From a phage, in assembly GCA_014691105.1 (NCBI GenBank), contig GCA_014691105.1_4891.1: DNA of 52,976 nt. The stretch is one strand, 5' to 3'. The notes beneath the pieces are model-generated. The model ran no database searches, was not told the origin of the DNA, and saw only the letters and a list, made by a program, of their open reading frames with translations. Positions 5,457 through 47,312 of the stretch are shown here, piece after piece. Made by a program: the position numbers and the translations under genes. Position 1 is the first letter of the stretch. Every line of letters starts with the position of its first letter.

Positions 5457-6131
5457 GTGATTAATATAATCTTTGCAATGGGCCAAAATGGGGAATTCGG
5501 GTTGTCTCCGGAGTTTATGAAGCATCAGGTTAACTCGTGCAAGACCATGGAAGAGGTCCGTGCGCTTCCTAAATCGGGTCTGCCCTGGAAATGTCCGTCA
5601 GACATGCTCTTTTTCAGGACTATGACTAATTCAGTTGCGACAGAACCAGGCTATAATGCATATCAGCAACTACGTGGACAGTTCCCACAAGACCAGTTGC
5701 GAAACATGATAGCAGATGTAACGGTAAAAATGGTAGGACATAGTGTATTGTTAGCCGGTCGTAACACGTATATGACTATGAGTCTGCCTATGTCAGCCCA
5801 CAGAATACTGCTGCCGGTATCTCGCCAGATTATGGCTTCAGAAGGCTACAATAATTTGGGTGAGATGGCAGCAGACCTTGAATCCAGAGGTACTGACGTC
5901 TGGATTGTAGGCGGTGCCGAATTGATACTTTCGGCCCTTGAAGAACACGCAAAAGACTTACTCCGTATCGACAACATGTTTATCAGTACGATCAAGCAAT
6001 CAGGTCCAAGTGATATTTTAATGGATTGTAGCAAATTAATGATGTACATTGATAGCGACTTTACATATAATGATGAATATGTTGATAACAAACAAGTTCT
6101 GATACAACGGTACAGGAGTTTACATAAATGA
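5457..6131 (+). CDS. dihydrofolate reductase-like protein
   Basis: DHFR-like blocks IIFAMGQNGEFG, GLPWKCPSDMLFFRTMT, VLLAGRNTYMTMSLPMSAHRILLPVSR and VWIVGGAELI, with an insertion after the first strand. Confidence 0.55.
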   Translation: MINIIFAMGQNGEFGLSPEFMKHQVNSCKTMEEVRALPKSGLPWKCPSDMLFFRTMTNSVATEPGYNAYQQLRGQFPQDQLRNMIADVTVKMVGHSVLLAGRNTYMTMSLPMSAHRILLPVSRQIMASEGYNNLGEMAADLESRGTDVWIVGGAELILSALEEHAKDLLRIDNMFISTIKQSGPSDILMDCSKLMMYIDSDFTYNDEYVDNKQVLIQRYRSLHK

Positions 6132-6634
6132 ACATCATAATCGAGGGTCCGGATAATGCTGGTAAAACTACAGTTATTGAGTTCCTTAAATCTCATACTG
6201 GCCGCAGTGTTACTCATAATACTGTTGACAAAGATCCCGAATCGGTCATGGCTAAACAGACCAAAGAAAACGCGTTGGAAGGCGATTGTATTTATGACCG
6301 TAGCGCTGTTATATCTGAGTATATCTATTGTCTGGTTCTTCAACGTACGCCTGTCATCAATATTAATGTATCACATGTAGCAGATATGTGCGACAACGCC
6401 ATCGTTATCTTTTGTATGCCGCCTGTTGAAAAGGTACTGGCAACTACAAAAGACGAGATGCCTGGTGTTGTGGAAAATCTTGAGGCGTTATACAATCAGT
6501 ATGACAACCTCATTGACGAACTGGTTATGATGAGTAAGCAGTTCTTCATTTACGACTGGACTGTTGAAGAAGATGGTCCTGAAGCAGTTCTAGAATATAT
6601 CAACGAACGTATTAATAAGGAGTGGAACAAATGA
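6128..6634 (+). CDS. P-loop nucleoside/deoxynucleoside monophosphate kinase (thymidylate-kinase-like)
   Basis: P-loop GPDNAGKTT followed by a DRS motif (YDRSAVISEY); ATGA overlap with the DHFR stop. Confidence 0.5.
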   Translation: MNIIIEGPDNAGKTTVIEFLKSHTGRSVTHNTVDKDPESVMAKQTKENALEGDCIYDRSAVISEYIYCLVLQRTPVININVSHVADMCDNAIVIFCMPPVEKVLATTKDEMPGVVENLEALYNQYDNLIDELVMMSKQFFIYDWTVEEDGPEAVLEYINERINKEWNK

Positions 6635-7332
6635 GCCCAGTATACAATACCTCAGTCACGCTGTCCGCAACCGTAGGGGGCGTCAACAAGACTGTTACTG
6701 TGGGTTCAACTAACCCTAACCTATCAGGCGAAGACCTGTTGCGCATGGCTAAACGTGCTCTTGAAGATAACGAAGTGACTGGTACTGAAGGTGTCAGCAT
6801 TGAGATTAACATCGAGGGTTATGAAGAAAGCATCAGCATTGCTACTTCTGACGATGAAGCTTGTGAACAGCTAAAGTTCAACGATGAGCTGGAATATCGT
6901 ACCGGTGAGATGTTCAGCAGTGCGCTAAACTGGTACTTGTACAAGGCTTCAAACTACGCTGGCGCTCCTATGTCAGACCGTATGTTAGCTGACATGTCTG
7001 CACGTGAAATTGCTAAAGGCTGGGCGCATGTACAGATGCTGCAGGAGCGTATCTGCAAGCTGAAAAGCTGCAATAAAGACGCGTCTGAGCTTATTACTGC
7101 CTATAAGCGACAGATTAACGACCTGCAGCAACTGATGGGCAAACGCGCTGAAGAATATGAGGCTGAGATTCGCAGTCTTAACGGCACAGCTGTTGCTAAC
7201 AACCGTGCTTTCAGCGAAGAGCGTAAAGCGCTTATCGCCCAGCGTGACGCTGAAAAACGTCGTGCAGACGACCTGGCAGACCGTCTCAACTTTATCCGTA
7301 AGCATATGGATGCTATGGAAGGGGTAATCTGA
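6622..7332 (+). CDS. hypothetical protein (coiled-coil C-terminus)
   Basis: ORF track; start may be the Met at 6631. Confidence 0.5.
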   Translation: MEQMSPVYNTSVTLSATVGGVNKTVTVGSTNPNLSGEDLLRMAKRALEDNEVTGTEGVSIEINIEGYEESISIATSDDEACEQLKFNDELEYRTGEMFSSALNWYLYKASNYAGAPMSDRMLADMSAREIAKGWAHVQMLQERICKLKSCNKDASELITAYKRQINDLQQLMGKRAEEYEAEIRSLNGTAVANNRAFSEERKALIAQRDAEKRRADDLADRLNFIRKHMDAMEGVI

Positions 7333-37622: not shown

Positions 37623-38507
37623 TTATACGGCCATTTGGAGTTTGATGTTTGGCATTGGTTTGTACTTCTCAACCATTGGCGTAACATCGGCAGGAGTGAA
37701 GTCAAACACTGACACGTCGTAAATTGCGTTAATGTCAGGACGACCTTCAAAGTTAGTGTCCAGTGTAGTATCAGAATTGCTTACGATACGTTGCAGGAAA
37801 ATCTTTGCCGCATCGATATGATTCTGATAGATATGATAATCACCCAGCGTAACAGTCATGTCGCCAACACCAGTACCCAGCTCAGCAGCAATGGTAATCT
37901 GCAGCATTTGATGCAACAGAATATCGTGAGGCAGACCAAGAATAACATCCGCGCTACGCATATGGAACATCAGCTCTAATTCATTACGGTTGTTAATGAA
38001 CAGCTGAAAACCATGGTAACAAGGCGGAAGGGCCATGGCATCCATCTCTTGTGGGTTCCACGCCGTAATGTACGCCCGGCGGTCGGTAGGCTTAACCTTC
38101 AGCGTTTCAATAACGTCTTTAAGCTGGTTAGTAAGAACACCATTCTTATAGAATGGCTTAATCCATTGCACGCCGTACACAGGACCTAAGTCACGGTTGT
38201 CTGGCGTACCCCAACGTTTGTTTGCGTCCTGCAGGTTACCTTCCCACCAGTTGCAGCCAAAGCCTTTGAGCGTGTCGACGTTTGAAATGCCGTTGATAAA
38301 GCAGTAAAGCTCAGCAGCAACAGCTTTGATGTTAACAGGTTTAAACACCGGCACCATCAGTTTGTTGTCGTTGAAAGCCAGTTTAAACGCCGTACCAAAA
38401 CAACGGCGGGTACCAACACCTGTACGGTCTACAACATCCTCGCCTTTACGTAAGATAAAAGAAATGATGTCGCTGTAAAGAGAATCGACAGTGCTGTATG
38501 TTTTCAT
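37623..38507 (-). CDS. thymidylate synthase superfamily enzyme, probable dCMP C5-hydroxymethylase or methylase
   Basis: TS-like blocks DRTGVGT, LGPVYGVQW, TAWNP, catalytic Cys in ALPPCYHGFQLF, RSADVILGLPHD and GDYHIYQNH; Asp replaces the TS Asn in LGLPHD (TS has LGLPFN). Confidence 0.7.
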   Translation of the reverse strand: MKTYSTVDSLYSDIISFILRKGEDVVDRTGVGTRRCFGTAFKLAFNDNKLMVPVFKPVNIKAVAAELYCFINGISNVDTLKGFGCNWWEGNLQDANKRWGTPDNRDLGPVYGVQWIKPFYKNGVLTNQLKDVIETLKVKPTDRRAYITAWNPQEMDAMALPPCYHGFQLFINNRNELELMFHMRSADVILGLPHDILLHQMLQITIAAELGTGVGDMTVTLGDYHIYQNHIDAAKIFLQRIVSNSDTTLDTNFEGRPDINAIYDVSVFDFTPADVTPMVEKYKPMPNIKLQMAV

Positions 38508-39100
38508 TAAAACAGTTCCTTTTGAGCCGGGTTAACGTGTGCGTCGATAATGGCCTGGATGTCAGGTGCTTTCCATCCTTCAGGCTTAACAATATCCTGA
38601 CTAGACTTATGCTTGCTGTTGCTTGCATCAGGCTTAGCGCGTTCTTTCGCCATGTTAGCAGCCTGTACCGCATCCCATGCTGCGTCAAGTGGCCAGTTGT
38701 TGTTTGCGCACCAGGTAATCAGGTGGATAATTAACTGGGCCAGACGGTCGCAATGAGTGTCTTCAGTATCCTTAACGTATACAATAAGGCCATCAGCATC
38801 GAAACGGTCCATAAATCCGCAGGGCGTAGTTAACAGAATCGGATACTCAAATTCGTTGGTGAACCATGCAGTCTGGTCGTACAGGTATAACGTACCTGCA
38901 GCGATGTAAATTAAATCTACAATACCGTCTAAGAAGCCAGCTTTGTCGCCGTCTTTCTTAGCTTGCTTAATTTCTTCCATCTCCTCAATAAGACGGTCGT
39001 AACGAAGCTTGAACTCAGGTTTACCGCCTTGACTAACAGGCTTGAGGTCAAACTTCTCATGAAAAGCGGTAACGCCTGCAGCAATTTTACTGAATCGCAT
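38507..39100 (-). CDS. MazG-like nucleoside triphosphate pyrophosphohydrolase
   Basis: All-alpha NTP-PPase signature RLIEEMEEIKQA...DGIVDLIYIAAG; coupled to the TS-like gene. Confidence 0.55.
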   Translation of the reverse strand: MRFSKIAAGVTAFHEKFDLKPVSQGGKPEFKLRYDRLIEEMEEIKQAKKDGDKAGFLDGIVDLIYIAAGTLYLYDQTAWFTNEFEYPILLTTPCGFMDRFDADGLIVYVKDTEDTHCDRLAQLIIHLITWCANNNWPLDAAWDAVQAANMAKERAKPDASNSKHKSSQDIVKPEGWKAPDIQAIIDAHVNPAQKELF

Positions 39101-39485
39101 TTCGTAACTCCTTACAAACAGTTTCGATAAACTTACGTTTAATTTCTGTAGACCAGATAATATGACGAGCCTGTTCTAAAGTGTCCCAACGTTCTTTACC
39201 CACAGGAAAGGGAACAATGAAAAGGCCGGTACGGGATATGCGCTTGATAAACGGGAATTTACAGCGCATGGTTGTTTCAAACTTGATAAAGTTTGTTTGC
39301 ACATCACGTGTAAACTTGACCTTATCAAATTCATGCTCAAGAGTTTGAGCAATGTTGCATACTTCCTGGAAAGAAGATGCAGGCAAGTAATCTTCGCGGC
39401 CGACGGTGTTCACGTAGTCGATTTGGCCTTCTAGCCGAAGTATCCAAATCCTGTAATAAGCTTCAGCAACACGTTGTAGATTCAT
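39087..39485 (-). CDS. hypothetical protein
   Basis: ORF track; preceded on the minus strand by a promoter and RBS. Confidence 0.5.
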   Translation of the reverse strand: MNLQRVAEAYYRIWILRLEGQIDYVNTVGREDYLPASSFQEVCNIAQTLEHEFDKVKFTRDVQTNFIKFETTMRCKFPFIKRISRTGLFIVPFPVGKERWDTLEQARHIIWSTEIKRKFIETVCKELRNAIQ

Positions 39486-39511: not shown

Positions 39512-39540
39512 ATTATACCACATCACTCTCTAGTGGTAAA
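39512..39540 (-). promoter_or_regulatory. sigma70-like promoter TTTACC-N17-TATAAT (minus strand)
   Basis: Minus-strand TTTACC (plus 39535-39540) and TATAAT (plus 39512-39517), 17-bp spacer, then GAGGAGAG RBS and ATG at 39485. Confidence 0.55.
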
Positions 39541-39560: not shown

Positions 39561-39594
39561 AAAAATAAAAAGGACCAGCGTTAACTGGCCCTTT
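39561..39594 (-). terminator. rho-independent terminator (minus strand)
   Basis: Minus-strand hairpin GGGCCAG TTAACG CTGGTCC followed by TTTTTATTTTT. Confidence 0.65.
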
Positions 39595-39855
39595 TGGCAG
39601 GGTGGCGTAAGGAGATACAAGGCATCGTAACTATGCAACCAGGCAGCGCATATGAGATTGGCCAAAAGATTTACCATTTTAATCCCCGCGACGAGACGAA
39701 AAAGGAGGTGTCATCGAGTAGCCAATCACATATGCGTTACTTGCTGTGTGCTCTCACCGCGGAAAGTATAGAGCGTTGCACTTATCACACCGATGGAGTG
39801 GCAAAAGCACACAGCAAGTACAACCTTAGTTGTGGTGTCTTAGCACCTGAGTTAT

Positions 39856-42674: not shown

Positions 42675-43553
42675 TTATTTTAAGGAAAGTTTAACGGGCT
42701 TCTCATCCTGTGGGAAGACATCAGCGGGGCGATAATCATCACAAGCTGCTAATTGTTCTTCGATTGTTTCGAGCTCTTTCTGGTGCTTGTTGCAATACCA
42801 CACTTTGCCCTGAAGCGGTTTACTGTAATGGCAGGTTCTGCAGTTCCTGTCAGGCATTGCTCCTTTGTGGCACAAGTGGTGGTACTCACACATTCCTGGC
42901 TTGCACTCCCACCAGATAGGCGATTCAGAAATCTTCGGCATATCCAAACCAGATTCCGCATATACAACAGCCTCCGCTTTACTCAGTTGTATGTCGCTTT
43001 CCAGTAAGTCAATCTCGACCACTTCAAAATACATCTCGTCGGTGTTCTTGTTGATTGCAATATACACAGCTTGGTTAAGCTTAAGCTTCCGCATGTATAC
43101 CTGCATCTGGGCGTAGTGTACCGGCTTACTTGCTTTAACAGACTTGAGCTTGACTAACTCTTTAAACGACTTATCGCCATGCGTCTTGAATTCAGCAAGT
43201 GCCCATACGCCTTTGTATTTGATCACACAGTCACAAGACCCAGAGAAGATGCCATTGAATTCATGTATGCGCCATTGCTTACCAGTCTTAGGATTGACGT
43301 CCAGCACTTCGTCACATACTGAACGAAGCCACTTTATAATTCTGCTTTCTTCAAGGTTACCACGTTCAAACAGACGAAGTTGCTTAGCCGTAAACTTCTC
43401 CTTGAACGACCAGTGCAGTACATGCCAAAGATAGCGATAGCAGTTGTGCCCTATCTGCGATGCTCCAAGATGCCCGCGTCGTTCTTCTCTTTCGTGGGCT
43501 TCGACTATCTTGATGTCAATACGTTTCTGCAGGTCGTCAAACGGACTGGACAT
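42675..43553 (-). CDS. PD-(D/E)XK nuclease of the Cas4/RecB-like exonuclease family
   Basis: D...EFK core (CDCVIKYKGVWALAEFKT), QhxxY motif (YAQMQVY) and a C-terminal cysteine cluster; track ORF extends to 43670 but the Met at 43553 is the likely start. Confidence 0.6.
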   Translation of the reverse strand: MSSPFDDLQKRIDIKIVEAHEREERRGHLGASQIGHNCYRYLWHVLHWSFKEKFTAKQLRLFERGNLEESRIIKWLRSVCDEVLDVNPKTGKQWRIHEFNGIFSGSCDCVIKYKGVWALAEFKTHGDKSFKELVKLKSVKASKPVHYAQMQVYMRKLKLNQAVYIAINKNTDEMYFEVVEIDLLESDIQLSKAEAVVYAESGLDMPKISESPIWWECKPGMCEYHHLCHKGAMPDRNCRTCHYSKPLQGKVWYCNKHQKELETIEEQLAACDDYRPADVFPQDEKPVKLSLK

Positions 43554-44022
43554 TGTTAAACTCCTCAACACTGAATTCATCGTACACAATGTTATGTGCC
43601 CACAAATGAGCGACGGCATTTGCCATGCTATCCTTCCATTTGGATTGTGAAGCTGTATGCGCCAATGCAACTACACGTACCAGGCTAAGGTTGGCTATCA
43701 GCATGTCAGCACAATGTTCGCACGGCGGGTAGGTTATGTAGATGGTAACCGGGCCTAAAGAAGGAGTGTCTAACTCCCTCCTTATATTAGCTAAGGTGTT
43801 TATCTCGCTATGAATAGTTAGAGCGTTCTTGAGGCTATTAGGCACTATTCTTATAGAGTCTAACTGCGTAGGCAGACCGTTATATCCAGTGGAAATAATA
43901 CGCTTGTTCTGGTCAACAAGAACGCTACCGACTTGACGTTTCGGGTCCTTCGACCAGCTTGCAACTTCACAAGCTATGCGCATAAACCGCCTGTCCCACT
44001 TGTCCATCTTCTTCTTTTGCAT
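43537..44022 (-). CDS. dCMP deaminase
   Basis: Cytidine/dCMP deaminase zinc motifs HSE (LTIHSEINTL) and PCEHC (YPPCEHCADML). Confidence 0.8.
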   Translation of the reverse strand: MQKKKMDKWDRRFMRIACEVASWSKDPKRQVGSVLVDQNKRIISTGYNGLPTQLDSIRIVPNSLKNALTIHSEINTLANIRRELDTPSLGPVTIYITYPPCEHCADMLIANLSLVRVVALAHTASQSKWKDSMANAVAHLWAHNIVYDEFSVEEFNNVQSV

Positions 44023-46406: not shown

Positions 46407-47312
46407 TTACAGCAGTTCTGCTTTCAGTGCAGCGATACCATCGAGCAGTGCTTTGATGTCCGGGTTAGATGCCGCCAGGTCAGCAACAACTGACTGACGA
46501 CGACGTTCCAGCTCTTTCTCAACTTCCAGATCGAGGCGTGCTGACGCTTCACGCAGTAAGTCTTCAACCTGCTGACGACGCTGATACTTGTTAAAGTCAG
46601 GCACATCAACCAGCCATTTGAGAGTTGCAGTGTTGTAGCCAGAAGTATTGGCTGCACTTACAGACACAACATCAACGAGTTTGGTACCATTCAGCTCCGG
46701 ATAGTTAACATTGCGAACGTCAACAACCGCTTTATCACCTACACTTACTTTGCCGATGTACTTGTAAGTGTACACACGACCATTCGGTTCAAACTTAACA
46801 CCAACAAACTTCAGTTTGTCGTCTGCAATAACTTCTTCCTCAACTTTGAAGTTGATTGCAGTGTTCTTGACAGGTGCAGCCGCTTTGAGCTTAGCAACCA
46901 TGTACTGTTCTGAATGAGACGGACGGCACAGACGGAAGACGTCTTCATTGTACGTCAGCCAGTTACCAGTCTCATCCATGCATGCAATCTGATTAGTGCC
47001 ATCCAGCGAACGAACACCCGGACGATTCTTCTCAACACGATACAGCTTACCTTCTTTCAGGTTAGCATAAGAACGGCGGGCGATACCCCAGTTGTGTTTT
47101 TCAGATTCATACTTAGCGAAACGGTCAACACTGAAGTTCTGCTTCAGACCCCGGTCGTCAATTACCCATAAGTTATCGTAAGCACCGCCGAAAGAACCCA
47201 GGTTGGCATACACTTTGCCCTGCGTCAACAGGGAAGTGTTTCCCTCGTCAACACAGATAACAAAACCCAGAGCTTCGTGTGCTTTACCGCTGCGGTCAAA
47301 TACTGTAGTCAT
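46407..47312 (-). CDS. hypothetical protein (301 aa)
   Basis: ORF track; no recognisable motif. Confidence 0.5.
   Translation of the reverse strand: MTTVFDRSGKAHEALGFVICVDEGNTSLLTQGKVYANLGSFGGAYDNLWVIDDRGLKQNFSVDRFAKYESEKHNWGIARRSYANLKEGKLYRVEKNRPGVRSLDGTNQIACMDETGNWLTYNEDVFRLCRPSHSEQYMVAKLKAAAPVKNTAINFKVEEEVIADDKLKFVGVKFEPNGRVYTYKYIGKVSVGDKAVVDVRNVNYPELNGTKLVDVVSVSAANTSGYNTATLKWLVDVPDFNKYQRRQQVEDLLREASARLDLEVEKELERRRQSVVADLAASNPDIKALLDGIAALKAELL

What the first reader, a model, noticed from the sequence alone, without database searches (positions are those of the whole stretch)
37623..39100. Thymidylate-synthase homologue with Asp at the dUMP-specifying position, coupled to a MazG-like NTP pyrophosphatase
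The protein has the thymidylate-synthase (TS) fold signature and catalytic Cys (ALPPCYHGF), but where E. coli ThyA has LGLPFN (Asn177, which selects uracil) this protein reads LGLPHD. In T4 dCMP hydroxymethylase the equivalent residue is Asp and confers cytosine specificity. The gene is translationally coupled to a MazG-like pyrophosphohydrolase that could deplete a canonical dNTP. Together they suggest the phage replaces cytosine with a C5-modified cytosine.
Basis: partly seen in the sequence, partly recalled or inferred. Interest (0 to 1): 0.8.

Follow-up and report, generated by a model that had tools for sequence, protein, structure and literature searches.

The report
Phage pathway for 5-methylcytosine DNA
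This Salmonella/E. coli phage carries a thymidylate-synthase relative rewired to act on cytosine nucleotides, joined to a dNTP-destroying enzyme, so it most likely builds its DNA with 5-methylcytosine instead of cytosine, as phage XP12 does. This has been overlooked in a phage group widely used for biocontrol.

Summary
Window 37623-38507(-) encodes a 294-aa thymidylate-synthase (TS) homologue whose Asn177-equivalent is Asp195. Its start overlaps the stop (TAATG) of a 197-aa all-alpha NTP pyrophosphohydrolase at 38507-39100(-).

The window is a Rosemountvirus, about 98% identical to Salmonella phage BP63. The TS belongs to a clade of 31 protein clusters with the signature H147Y/Q165M/F176H/N177D; 29 of the 31 have Asp177. 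None of the 89 nearest canonical ThyA proteins has any of these changes.

The same gene set occurs in XP12 and PaMx74, reported as 5-methylcytosine (5mC) phages: PRA-PH pyrophosphohydrolase, TS-Asp177, dCMP-deaminase family and DHFR. The window adds a thymidylate-kinase-fold kinase, and its pyrophosphohydrolase is homologous to XP12's.

Leu143, Asp169, the canonical C-terminus and a co-encoded DHFR point to a methyl product, not hydroxymethyl or hydroxy. DNA of the sister-genus phage S144, which has the same TS signature, is published as cut only by A/T-only enzymes, with no gene assigned.

In one metagenomic relative the TS has Asn177 and the pyrophosphohydrolase has lost its catalytic motifs.

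This is a new, probably independently derived member of a known kind. No chemistry has been done on this phage.

The parts
37623..38507 (-). TS-family enzyme, predicted dCMP C5-methyltransferase (5-methyl-dCMP synthase). Key residues: Cys163 (=C146), Leu160 (=L143), Tyr164 (=H147), Met183 (=Q165), Asp187 (=D169), His194 (=F176), Asp195 (=N177). The C-terminus ...IKLQMAV is canonical.
   Evidence: Pfam PF00303 at E=2.3e-62. Alignments. Residue and codon positions. Clade signature.
38507..39100 (-). All-alpha NTP pyrophosphohydrolase (PRA-PH/MazG/dimeric-dUTPase superfamily), predicted dCTPase. Metal-binding motifs are EExxE (E39, E40, E43) and DxxD (D58, D62); family motifs are VQAANMAKE (145-153) and VKPEGW (171-176). 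Its stop overlaps the TS start (TAATG).
39087..39485 (-). First gene of the operon: a conserved 132-aa protein of unknown function that overlaps the pyrophosphohydrolase start by 14 nt.
   Evidence: ORF. PHROG 36727, unknown function. The gene is syntenic in S144, SOI901 and vB_SE1_KM.
39512..39540 (-). Sigma-70-like promoter (TTTACC, 17 nt spacer, TATAAT, with an extended -10 TG) in front of the orf132 / pyrophosphohydrolase / TS / polymerase operon.
   Evidence: The equivalent position is annotated as a promoter in BP63.
39568..39595 (-). Intrinsic-terminator-like hairpin followed by a T-run, closing the upstream transcription unit.
43537..44022 (-). dCMP/cytidine-deaminase-family protein (161 aa). 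Predicted to deaminate part of the 5-methyl-dC nucleotide pool to dT nucleotides.
   Evidence: Pfam PF00383 at E=2.5e-21. 36% identical to PaMx74 cd (E=2e-28) and 34% to the XP12 deaminase. Function of the family in 5mC phages: bioRxiv 10.1101/2024.12.05.627091.
5457..6131 (+). Dihydrofolate reductase homologue (224 aa). Predicted to recycle the DHF produced by reductive methylation.
   Evidence: Pfam PF00186 at 29.7 bits against a cut-off of 25. PHROG 316 at E=6e-26.
6128..6634 (+). P-loop kinase with a thymidylate-kinase fold (168 aa), overlapping the DHFR stop. Predicted 5-methyl-dCMP kinase.

Best explanation
The two genes are the core of a pre-replicative pathway that replaces cytosine with 5-methylcytosine in phage DNA. 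All steps below are inferred for this phage.
1. The PRA-PH/MazG-type pyrophosphohydrolase hydrolyses dCTP to dCMP. This removes the canonical nucleotide and feeds the next enzyme.
2. The TS homologue binds dCMP instead of dUMP because Asn177 is replaced by Asp195. The neighbouring H-bond partners H147 and Q165 are replaced by Tyr and Met. It transfers and reduces the one-carbon unit of methylene-THF, giving 5-methyl-dCMP and DHF.
3. The phage DHFR regenerates THF.
4. The thymidylate-kinase-fold kinase, followed by host NDP kinase, yields 5-methyl-dCTP. The phage family-A polymerase encoded in the same operon incorporates it.
5. The phage deaminase converts part of the 5-methyl-dC nucleotide pool into dT nucleotides, so no dUMP-specific TS is needed.

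Shown here: gene identities, active-site residues, homology and synteny with reported 5mC phages, and restriction resistance of a sister-genus phage (published). Not shown for this phage: substrates, products and virion base composition.
For: Substrate switch.
- Asp sits at the N177 position.
- Published mutagenesis cited in PMC8670742 and PMC13326640 shows that N177D converts TS into a dCMP methylase.
- H147 and N177 were the two most discriminating positions between modified and unmodified phage contigs.
- The window clade changes H147, Q165, F176 and N177 together. The XP12 and PaMx74 enzymes and T4 gp42 also lose H147 and Q165.

Methyl product.
- Leu143 is kept (acidic in hydroxymethylases) and Asp169 is kept (Asn in 5-hydroxy-dCMP synthases). 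The rules come from PMC13326640; the residues are.
- The canonical closing C-terminus ...MAV is kept, along with E58, W80, Y94 and all phosphate-binding arginines.
- DHFR is co-encoded, and this is the only TS homologue found in each related phage record.
- No glycosyltransferase, DNA methyltransferase or dioxygenase appeared in Pfam scans of about 30 further ORFs.

Same module in reported 5mC phages.
- XP12 has PRA-PH, TS, deaminase and DHFR in a row, and so does PaMx74.
- The XP12 TS homologue was shown to make 5mdC in vivo, and PRA-PH, TS, deaminase and PolA are the top co-localised domains in modified contigs (bioRxiv 10.1101/2024.12.05.627091).
- The window pyrophosphohydrolase hits XP12's at E=1.7e-5 to 4e-8.
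- The window deaminase is 34-36% identical to theirs.

Functional coupling.
- The TAATG overlap is conserved in four phage lineages.
- A natural fusion joins this kinase type to the PRA-PH domain, next to a TS-Asp177 and a deaminase.
- In contig L014 the TS has Asn177 and the upstream homologue has lost EExxE, DxxD, NMAKE and KPEGW. In L015 (Asp177) all are intact.

Phenotype.
- S144 DNA is cut only by SspI and PacI, not by seven G/C-containing enzymes (PMC7432712).
- The XP12 relative AXL1 shows the same pattern (PMC9206674).

Folds.
- The pyrophosphohydrolase model is closest to the dimeric dUTPases.
- The kinase model is closest to thymidylate kinases.
Against: - No nucleoside analysis, enzyme assay or restriction digest exists for this phage or any Rosemountvirus in the searched literature.
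- The S144 digests cannot tell 5mC from other C (or G) modifications.
- The window TS is only 28% identical to the XP12 and PaMx74 enzymes and does not group with them. Product specificity is therefore inferred from a few residues.
- The L143 rule is described by its authors as a correlation only.
- Met at position 165 is shared with the T4 hydroxymethylase.
- Two clade members have Asn177 while keeping Tyr147, Met165 and His176, so those three residues alone do not define dCMP use.
- Fully 5mC-substituted DNA should be attacked by McrBC in E. coli K-12 (my own knowledge). The CF2 record lists an E. coli K-12 host and the BEC1-17 record lists E. coli K514. The CF2 paper names CP9 and MG1655 as isolation strains.
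- Several orphan ORFs could hide an unknown further-modifying enzyme.
- The pyrophosphohydrolase substrate is not known.
- No kinase homologue was detected in XP12 or in the first 50 kb of PaMx74.
Confidence: 0.68

Rival explanations
1. The enzyme is a dCMP hydroxymethylase, as in T4. The DNA then carries 5-hydroxymethylcytosine, possibly decorated further by an unrecognised enzyme.
For: Asp177 and Met165 are shared with T4 gp42. The S144 restriction resistance fits 5hmC or its derivatives equally well. Several window ORFs have no assignable function.
Against: Position 143 is Leu, not Asp or Glu. The canonical TS C-terminus, which T4 gp42 lacks, is kept. DHFR is co-encoded although hydroxymethylation yields THF, not DHF (the chemistry is established knowledge). 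No glycosyltransferase or other transferase was found. The gene set matches the 5mC phages XP12 and PaMx74, not T4.
Confidence: 0.12
2. The TS-Asp177 and deaminase pair is mainly an alternative route to thymidine nucleotides (dCMP to 5-methyl-dCMP and on to dT nucleotides). Little or no 5mC would end up in virion DNA of this phage.
For: The deaminase family in such phages converts 5-methyl-dC nucleotides to dT nucleotides. The phage has no dUMP-type TS. No direct data exist for Rosemountvirus DNA.
Against: An intact dCTP-depleting-type pyrophosphohydrolase is coupled to the TS, and it decays when the TS reverts to Asn177. S144, with the same gene set, has restriction-resistant DNA. In XP12 the same genes accompany complete replacement.
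Confidence: 0.1
3. It is an ordinary thymidylate synthase (dUMP to dTMP), as annotated in more than 50 GenBank records, and the pyrophosphohydrolase is a generic house-cleaning enzyme.
For: It scores above the cut-off of NCBIfam TIGR03284 'thymidylate synthase' (172 against 108 bits). At 34-37% identity it is closer to ThyA than to any specialised enzyme.
Against: Asp at position 177 excludes dUMP preference in mutagenesis studies cited. None of the 89 nearest true ThyA proteins has Asp177, Tyr147 or Met165. It falls far below the other ThyA equivalog cut-offs. This reading does not explain the S144 phenotype.
Confidence: 0.04
4. The enzyme makes a different or new C5 derivative, such as 5-hydroxy-dCMP or an unknown product.
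For: TS homologues have recently been shown to have unexpected chemistries (PMC13326640). This clade is distinct from all characterised ones.
Against: The 5-hydroxy signature D169N is absent. All residues of the canonical methyl-transfer and hydride-transfer machinery are kept.
Confidence: 0.05

Closest known systems
Xanthomonas phage XP12 / Pseudomonas phage PaMx74 5-methylcytosine pathway (TS-homologue dCMP methyltransferase, PRA-PH hydrolase, dCMP-deaminase-family enzyme, DHFR)
   Same: The same four enzyme families are present. The PRA-PH gene lies immediately upstream of the TS homologue, overlapping it in PaMx74 and in the window. Asp177 is present, and H147 and Q165 are lost. The pyrophosphohydrolases and deaminases are detectably homologous. 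All use a family-A DNA polymerase.
   Different: The TS is only 28% identical and retains the canonical ThyA C-terminus, which the XP12 and PaMx74 enzymes lack. The substitutions differ (Tyr147/Met165/His176 here, Pro147/Leu165/Tyr176 there). In the window the deaminase and DHFR are dispersed rather than contiguous. The window pyrophosphohydrolase has an insertion of about 70 aa and lacks the XP12 C-terminal extension. The window adds its own thymidylate-kinase-fold kinase. The host and morphotype differ: an enterobacterial myovirus against siphoviruses of Xanthomonas and Pseudomonas.
Phage T4 gp42 dCMP hydroxymethylase with gp56 dCTPase
   Same: The logic is the same: destroy dCTP, modify dCMP at C5 with a TS homologue carrying Asp at position 177, then re-phosphorylate with a phage kinase. 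Met is also at position 165.
   Different: Identity to gp42 is 20-25%. T4 has Asp at 143 and no TS C-terminal tail, and its product is hydroxymethyl followed by glucosylation. No significant sequence or profile similarity to gp56 was found. No glucosyltransferase was found here.
E. coli / L. casei ThyA and their engineered N177D (N229D) dCMP-methylase mutants
   Same: This is the closest sequence family (34-37% identity). All catalytic, phosphate-binding and folate-side residues are kept. The single engineered change N177D gives dCMP methylation (literature cited).
   Different: The natural enzyme also changes H147, Q165 and F176. It carries two insertions, after W80 and near the C-terminal domain.
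Metagenomic '5mC-selective deaminase' contigs (mSCD-B5 and relatives, bioRxiv 10.1101/2024.12.05.627091)
   Same: The domain neighbourhood described there matches the window's replication module: TS with Asp177, PRA-PH, dCMP-deaminase family, DNA_pol_A.
   Different: Here the deaminase lies 5 kb from the TS, outside their 3-kb window.

Membership tests
Thymidylate synthase / dCMP hydroxymethylase superfamily (Pfam PF00303) | Full-length match to the family profile above the curated threshold | tested here: met
   211 bits against a cut-off of 24.3, covering profile positions 3-266 of 266.
Thymidylate synthase / dCMP hydroxymethylase superfamily (Pfam PF00303) | Catalytic Cys146 and phosphate-binding R21, R126, R127, R166, S167 | tested here: met
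   All are conserved in the window protein. Cys163 aligns with C146.
Canonical dUMP-specific ThyA (EC 2.1.1.45) | Asn177 with its H-bond partners Gln165 and His147, which select uracil | tested here: not met
   The window has Asp, Met and Tyr at these positions. All 89 nearest ThyA sequences have Asn, Gln and His.
Canonical dUMP-specific ThyA (EC 2.1.1.45) | Folate and hydride-transfer apparatus: E58, W80, Y94, L143, D169, and the C-terminal ...(A/M)(V/I) carboxylate | tested here: met
   All are conserved, and the C-terminus is IKLQMAV.
Phage dCMP C5-methyltransferase (XP12-type 5-methyl-dCMP synthase) | Asp at position 177, with a non-acidic residue at 143 and Asp (not Asn) at 169 | tested here: met
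   The window has D195, L160 and D187. The rules come from PMC13326640.
Phage dCMP C5-methyltransferase (XP12-type 5-methyl-dCMP synthase) | Genomic association with a PRA-PH hydrolase, a dCMP-deaminase-family enzyme and DHFR | tested here: met
   All three are present in the window. The same set is found in XP12 and PaMx74.
Phage dCMP C5-methyltransferase (XP12-type 5-methyl-dCMP synthase) | Belongs to the same sequence clade as the XP12 and PaMx74 enzymes | tested here: not met
   Identity is 28%. The window protein sits on a separate long branch and is closer to ThyA at 34-37%. It works like the XP12 enzyme but is not an orthologue.
Phage dCMP C5-methyltransferase (XP12-type 5-methyl-dCMP synthase) | Makes 5-methyl-dCMP from dCMP; virion DNA has 5mC in place of C | not testable with these tools
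   The only evidence is indirect: restriction resistance of S144 DNA (PMC7432712).
T4-type dCMP hydroxymethylase | Acidic residue at position 143, and absence of the TS C-terminal closing segment | tested here: not met
   The window has Leu at 143 and a canonical C-terminus.
5-hydroxy-dCMP synthase (RB69 gp48 type) | D169N substitution | tested here: not met
   Asp187 is retained at this position.
All-alpha NTP pyrophosphohydrolase superfamily (MazG / HisE PRA-PH / dimeric dUTPase) | Profile match, the acidic metal-binding motifs EExxE and DxxD, and a helical-bundle fold | tested here: met
All-alpha NTP pyrophosphohydrolase superfamily (MazG / HisE PRA-PH / dimeric dUTPase) | Substrate is dCTP (dCTPase function like T4 gp56) | not testable with these tools
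   This is inferred from context only. No detectable similarity to T4 gp56 was found.

The most novel reading that the evidence does not exclude
The dCMP-methylating TS of this phage group arose independently of the XP12 enzyme, directly from a canonical ThyA. It would have done so through a small set of substitutions (H147Y, Q165M, F176H, N177D) that is still reversible in nature, as shown by the Asn177 relatives whose pyrophosphohydrolase has decayed. A whole family-level group of enterobacterial myoviruses (Rosemountvirus, Loughboroughvirus, the SOI901 and KM/KE lineages, and 45-kb metagenomic relatives) would then have fully 5mC-substituted genomes. Because some members have E. coli K-12-type strains listed as hosts, which carry McrBC, they may also carry an unrecognised anti-Type-IV-restriction function, or a modification that is not plain 5mC.
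Probability: 0.3. Interest if true: 0.65.

Novelty: new member of a known kind. Interest (0 to 1): 0.5.

Why it matters
Rosemountvirus and Loughboroughvirus phages are isolated again and again as biocontrol and therapy candidates against Salmonella and E. coli; more than 50 genomes hit the region. In all of the annotated records listed, this gene is called an ordinary thymidylate synthase.

If their DNA is 5mC-substituted, several things follow.
- It explains the unexplained restriction resistance reported for S144.
- It predicts resistance to many Type II and some other DNA-targeting defences, and sensitivity to Type IV systems (McrBC, and other 5mC-dependent nucleases). This affects host range and cocktail design.
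- It affects nanopore, bisulfite and enzymatic-methyl sequencing, and cloning of their DNA.
- It gives an E. coli/Salmonella-based model for complete C-to-5mC replacement, which is easier to work with than Xanthomonas XP12.
- It gives a second, ThyA-like lineage of natural dCMP methylase for studying how TS substrate specificity switches.

Tried and rejected
- **T4 gp56 dCTPase against the window pyrophosphohydrolase.** There was no similarity by BLASTP or by profile comparison (probability 0.3%), so I make no homology claim.
- **Sequence search of the kinase against PDB.** It found only P-loop matches. The fold search resolved it.
- **Palindrome and restriction-site avoidance as an indirect sign of modification.** G/C-containing and A/T-only 6-bp palindromes are equally and mildly depleted (583 observed against 646 expected; 112 against 120). 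This is uninformative.
- **Published restriction digests or base analysis of Rosemountviruses.** I looked in the swi3, vB_SenM-1, PA13076, ZCSE2, CF2, SPLA, AV127 and AEV23 papers. None has such data.
- **An apparent 98-bp insertion in the TS gene of phage AV127.** It is a run of N in the record.
- **7-deazaguanine or other known modification genes.** None is annotated in BP63 and none appeared in my Pfam scans.
- **NCBIfam scan.** It gave no model for the pyrophosphohydrolase.
Full report
**What the window is.** The 2.1 kb around the finding is 95-98% identical to more than 40 sequenced phages of the genus Rosemountvirus. The best match is Salmonella phage BP63 at 98.2%. At 52,976 bp against 52,437 bp for BP63, the window is essentially one whole phage genome.

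**Check of the observation.**
- Two minus-strand ORFs occupy exactly the stated coordinates: 37623-38507 (294 aa) and 38507-39100 (197 aa).
- The first is a full-length member of the thymidylate synthase / dCMP hydroxymethylase family (PF00303, E=2.3e-62). The second matches PRA-PH (PF01503), an all-alpha NTP pyrophosphohydrolase family, above its curated threshold.
- phmmer against PDB aligns 'RSADVILGLPHDI' with M. tuberculosis ThyA 'RSADLFLGVPFNI'.
- MAFFT alignments with E. coli ThyA (sequence verified identical to PDB 1AOB) and T4 gp42 put Asp195 on Asn177 and Cys163 on Cys146.
- The stop of the upstream gene and the ATG of the TS gene share a base (TAATG).
- A sigma-70-like promoter with an extended -10 element, preceded by a terminator, lies in front of a conserved 132-aa gene that overlaps the pyrophosphohydrolase start by 14 nt. 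The unit therefore reads orf132, pyrophosphohydrolase, TS, polymerase accessory protein, PolA.

**Is the Asp more than chance?** A search of 5.8 billion proteins gave a sharply bimodal result.
- Thirty-one clusters share at least 50% identity (E ≤ 1e-87). About half of them sit on phage-sized contigs of 44-54 kb.
- The next hits are canonical ThyA at 38% identity or less (E about 1e-41).
- All 89 listed canonical proteins read His147, Gln165, Phe176 and Asn177.
- All 31 clade members read Tyr147, Met165 and His176, and 29 of them read Asp177.
- The rest of the catalytic apparatus is unchanged: R21, E58, W80, Y94, R126/127, L143, C146, R166, S167, D169, H207, Y209 and the C-terminal ...MAV.
- The change is thus a targeted, conserved remodelling of the pocket that reads the 4-position of the pyrimidine.
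- The same three canonical residues (H147, Q165, N177) are also replaced in T4 gp42 (Thr, Met, Asp) and in the XP12 and PaMx74 enzymes (Pro, Leu, Asp).

**What the literature says those residues mean.**
- N177D converts TS into a dCMP methylase. Positions 147 and 177 were the two most discriminating positions between TS homologues on cytosine-modified and unmodified phage contigs (PMC8670742).
- A 2026 study lists three product rules: a bulky hydrophobic residue at 143 goes with methyl products, Asp or Glu at 143 goes with hydroxymethyl products, and Asn at 169 marks the newly found 5-hydroxy-dCMP synthases (PMC13326640).
- The window enzyme has Leu143 and Asp169, so it carries the 'dCMP in, methyl out' signature.
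- Two further points argue for reductive methylation. The protein keeps the TS C-terminus, which T4 gp42 lacks. The phage also encodes a DHFR (5457-6131) although this is its only TS-family gene (one match per related phage record). Hydroxymethylation would not produce DHF (established chemistry).

**The rest of the pathway is in the window.**
- A dCMP-deaminase-family gene lies at 43537-44022.
- A P-loop kinase at 6128-6634 overlaps the DHFR stop.
- Thirty-one homologues share invariant EExxE and DxxD metal-binding motifs and two family motifs, VQAANMAKE and VKPEGW.
- Pfam scans of about 30 other early-region ORFs found no glycosyltransferase, DNA methyltransferase, dioxygenase or similar enzyme. 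Several orphan ORFs remain.

**Comparison with reported 5mC phages.**
- A 2024 preprint reports that the XP12 TS homologue makes 5mdC in vivo. It finds that dCMP-deaminase-family genes on cytosine-modified contigs co-localise with TS (Asp177), PRA-PH and PolA. It also proposes that such deaminases turn 5-methyl-dC nucleotides into dT nucleotides (10.1101/2024.12.05.627091).
- I retrieved XP12 (MT664984) and PaMx74 (NC_028809). Both carry PRA-PH, TS, deaminase and DHFR in a row.
- The window pyrophosphohydrolase is homologous to theirs: E=1e-7 pairwise, and XP12's protein was recovered in the database search at E=1.7e-5.
- The deaminase is 34-36% identical to theirs.
- The TS itself is only 28% identical to the XP12 enzyme, against 34-37% to E. 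coli ThyA, and sits on its own branch. It works like the XP12 enzyme but is not its orthologue. An independent derivation from a ThyA-like ancestor is the simplest reading.

**Two natural experiments support functional coupling.**
- One metagenomic protein (P0147) fuses a kinase domain to a PRA-PH domain. The kinase domain is 40% identical to the N-terminal 67 residues of the window kinase (E=2e-10). The gene sits in an operon with a TS-Asp177 and a deaminase.
- One of the two clade members with Asn177 (P0013, contig L014) still has the overlapping upstream gene, but that gene has lost EExxE, DxxD, NMAKE and KPEGW. A more distant Asp177 relative (L015) keeps them all.
- The second case is a single short contig, so it is suggestive rather than conclusive.

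**Experimental hint.**
- Phage S144 belongs to Loughboroughvirus, the sister genus. Its TS is 73% identical with the same signature.
- Its DNA was reported to be cut only by SspI and PacI and not by seven G/C-containing enzymes. The authors concluded 'modified on the cytosine', found no responsible gene, and treated the TS as ordinary (PMC7432712).
- The XP12 relative AXL1 shows the same A/T-only cutting pattern (PMC9206674).
- I found no paper that names the modification in this phage group. As late as 2026 the gene is still listed as plain thymidylate synthase.

**Mechanism proposed.** All steps are inferred for this phage.
1. The pyrophosphohydrolase hydrolyses dCTP to dCMP.
2. The TS-Asp195 enzyme converts dCMP and CH2-THF into 5-methyl-dCMP and DHF.
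3. DHFR regenerates THF.
4. The phage kinase and host NDP kinase raise 5-methyl-dCMP to 5-methyl-dCTP, which the phage PolA incorporates.
5. The deaminase diverts part of the 5-methyl-dC pool to dT nucleotides.

**Caveats.**
- There is no chemistry for this phage.
- The product call rests on a few residues and on context.
- Met165 is shared with the T4 hydroxymethylase.
- Two clade members have Asn177.
- Orphan ORFs could encode further modification.
- McrBC of E. coli K-12 should restrict 5mC DNA (my own knowledge). The CF2 record lists an E. coli K-12 host and the BEC1-17 record lists E. coli K514, and the CF2 paper names CP9 and MG1655 as isolation strains. This calls for either an inhibitor or a different modification.

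**Verdict.** The probability that the enzyme is cytosine-specific and the DNA carries some C5-modified cytosine is about 0.85. The principle is well known from XP12, T4 and the N177D work, so this is a new, probably independently evolved member of a known kind. Its practical relevance is that the phage group is widely used and uniformly mis-annotated.

Noticed in passing
whole window (GATC positions listed): GATC is strongly depleted: 30 observed against 156 expected from a Markov model (O/E 0.19). The EcoRV site GATATC is absent (0 against 12.4 expected). Other 4-bp palindromes are near expectation. This may reflect Dam/MutH or GATC-type restriction pressure that cytosine modification does not relieve.
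   Followed up: partly
window 39087-39485 (-): A conserved 132-aa protein of unknown function (PHROG 36727) is the first gene of the operon and overlaps the pyrophosphohydrolase start by 14 nt. It is syntenic in Rosemountvirus, Loughboroughvirus, Erwinia phage SOI901 and vB_SE1_KM, so it may be a further pathway component or a host-enzyme inhibitor.
   Followed up: partly
L014 (Logan SRR13494277_1709) 33-587 and 584-1462: This relative has a TS with Asn177 (and Lys127) while keeping Tyr147, Met165 and His176. Its overlapping upstream pyrophosphohydrolase homologue has lost all catalytic and family motifs. It looks like a natural reversion to a dUMP-type enzyme with decay of the partner. A second Asn177 cluster (P0020) sits on a contig too short to examine.
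   Followed up: partly
L013 8001-8972 (protein P0147): A natural fusion of a P-loop kinase domain, homologous to the window kinase, with a PRA-PH pyrophosphohydrolase domain. It lies in an operon with a divergent TS homologue (RSCDFFRHWRDD, Asp177, His173) and a deaminase. That divergent TS clade, also seen in L009 and L010, is uncharacterised.
   Followed up: partly
window 5457-6131 (+): The DHFR homologue is unusually long (224 aa against about 160). Only residues of about 94-223 match DHFR profiles, so the N-terminal 90 aa or so are unexplained. Its stop overlaps the kinase start.
   Followed up: no
record PP583539.1: A record named 'Listeria phage 220426122051' (host Listeria monocytogenes) is 97.4% identical to this enterobacterial phage over the region. 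The host assignment is probably wrong, or the sample was contaminated.
   Followed up: no
L016 (Escherichia phage AV127, OR352957.1) around 397-494: The deposited AV127 genome has a run of 98 N inside the TS gene. As a result the annotated 'thymidylate synthase' CDS is truncated at its 5' end. This is an assembly gap, not biology.
   Followed up: yes
window 46407-47312 (-) and 6622-7332 (+): These are two large orphan ORFs (301 aa and 236 aa) with no Pfam match. The 236-aa ORF matched only a PHROG family of unknown function; the 301-aa ORF was not scanned against PHROGs. The S144 paper describes a variable 'BAH-domain putative methyltransferase' gene (ORF63) and neighbouring hypothetical genes in the replication cluster. 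Whether the 301-aa ORF corresponds to it was not checked. These ORFs are candidates for unknown accessory functions such as anti-restriction.
   Followed up: no
L010 5824-8333: A metagenomic contig combines the PRA-PH, TS(Asp177) and deaminase module with a C5 DNA methyltransferase (PF00145), an N6/N4 methyltransferase, an asparagine-synthase-like gene and ThyX. This may be a more elaborate cytosine-modification cluster.
   Followed up: no
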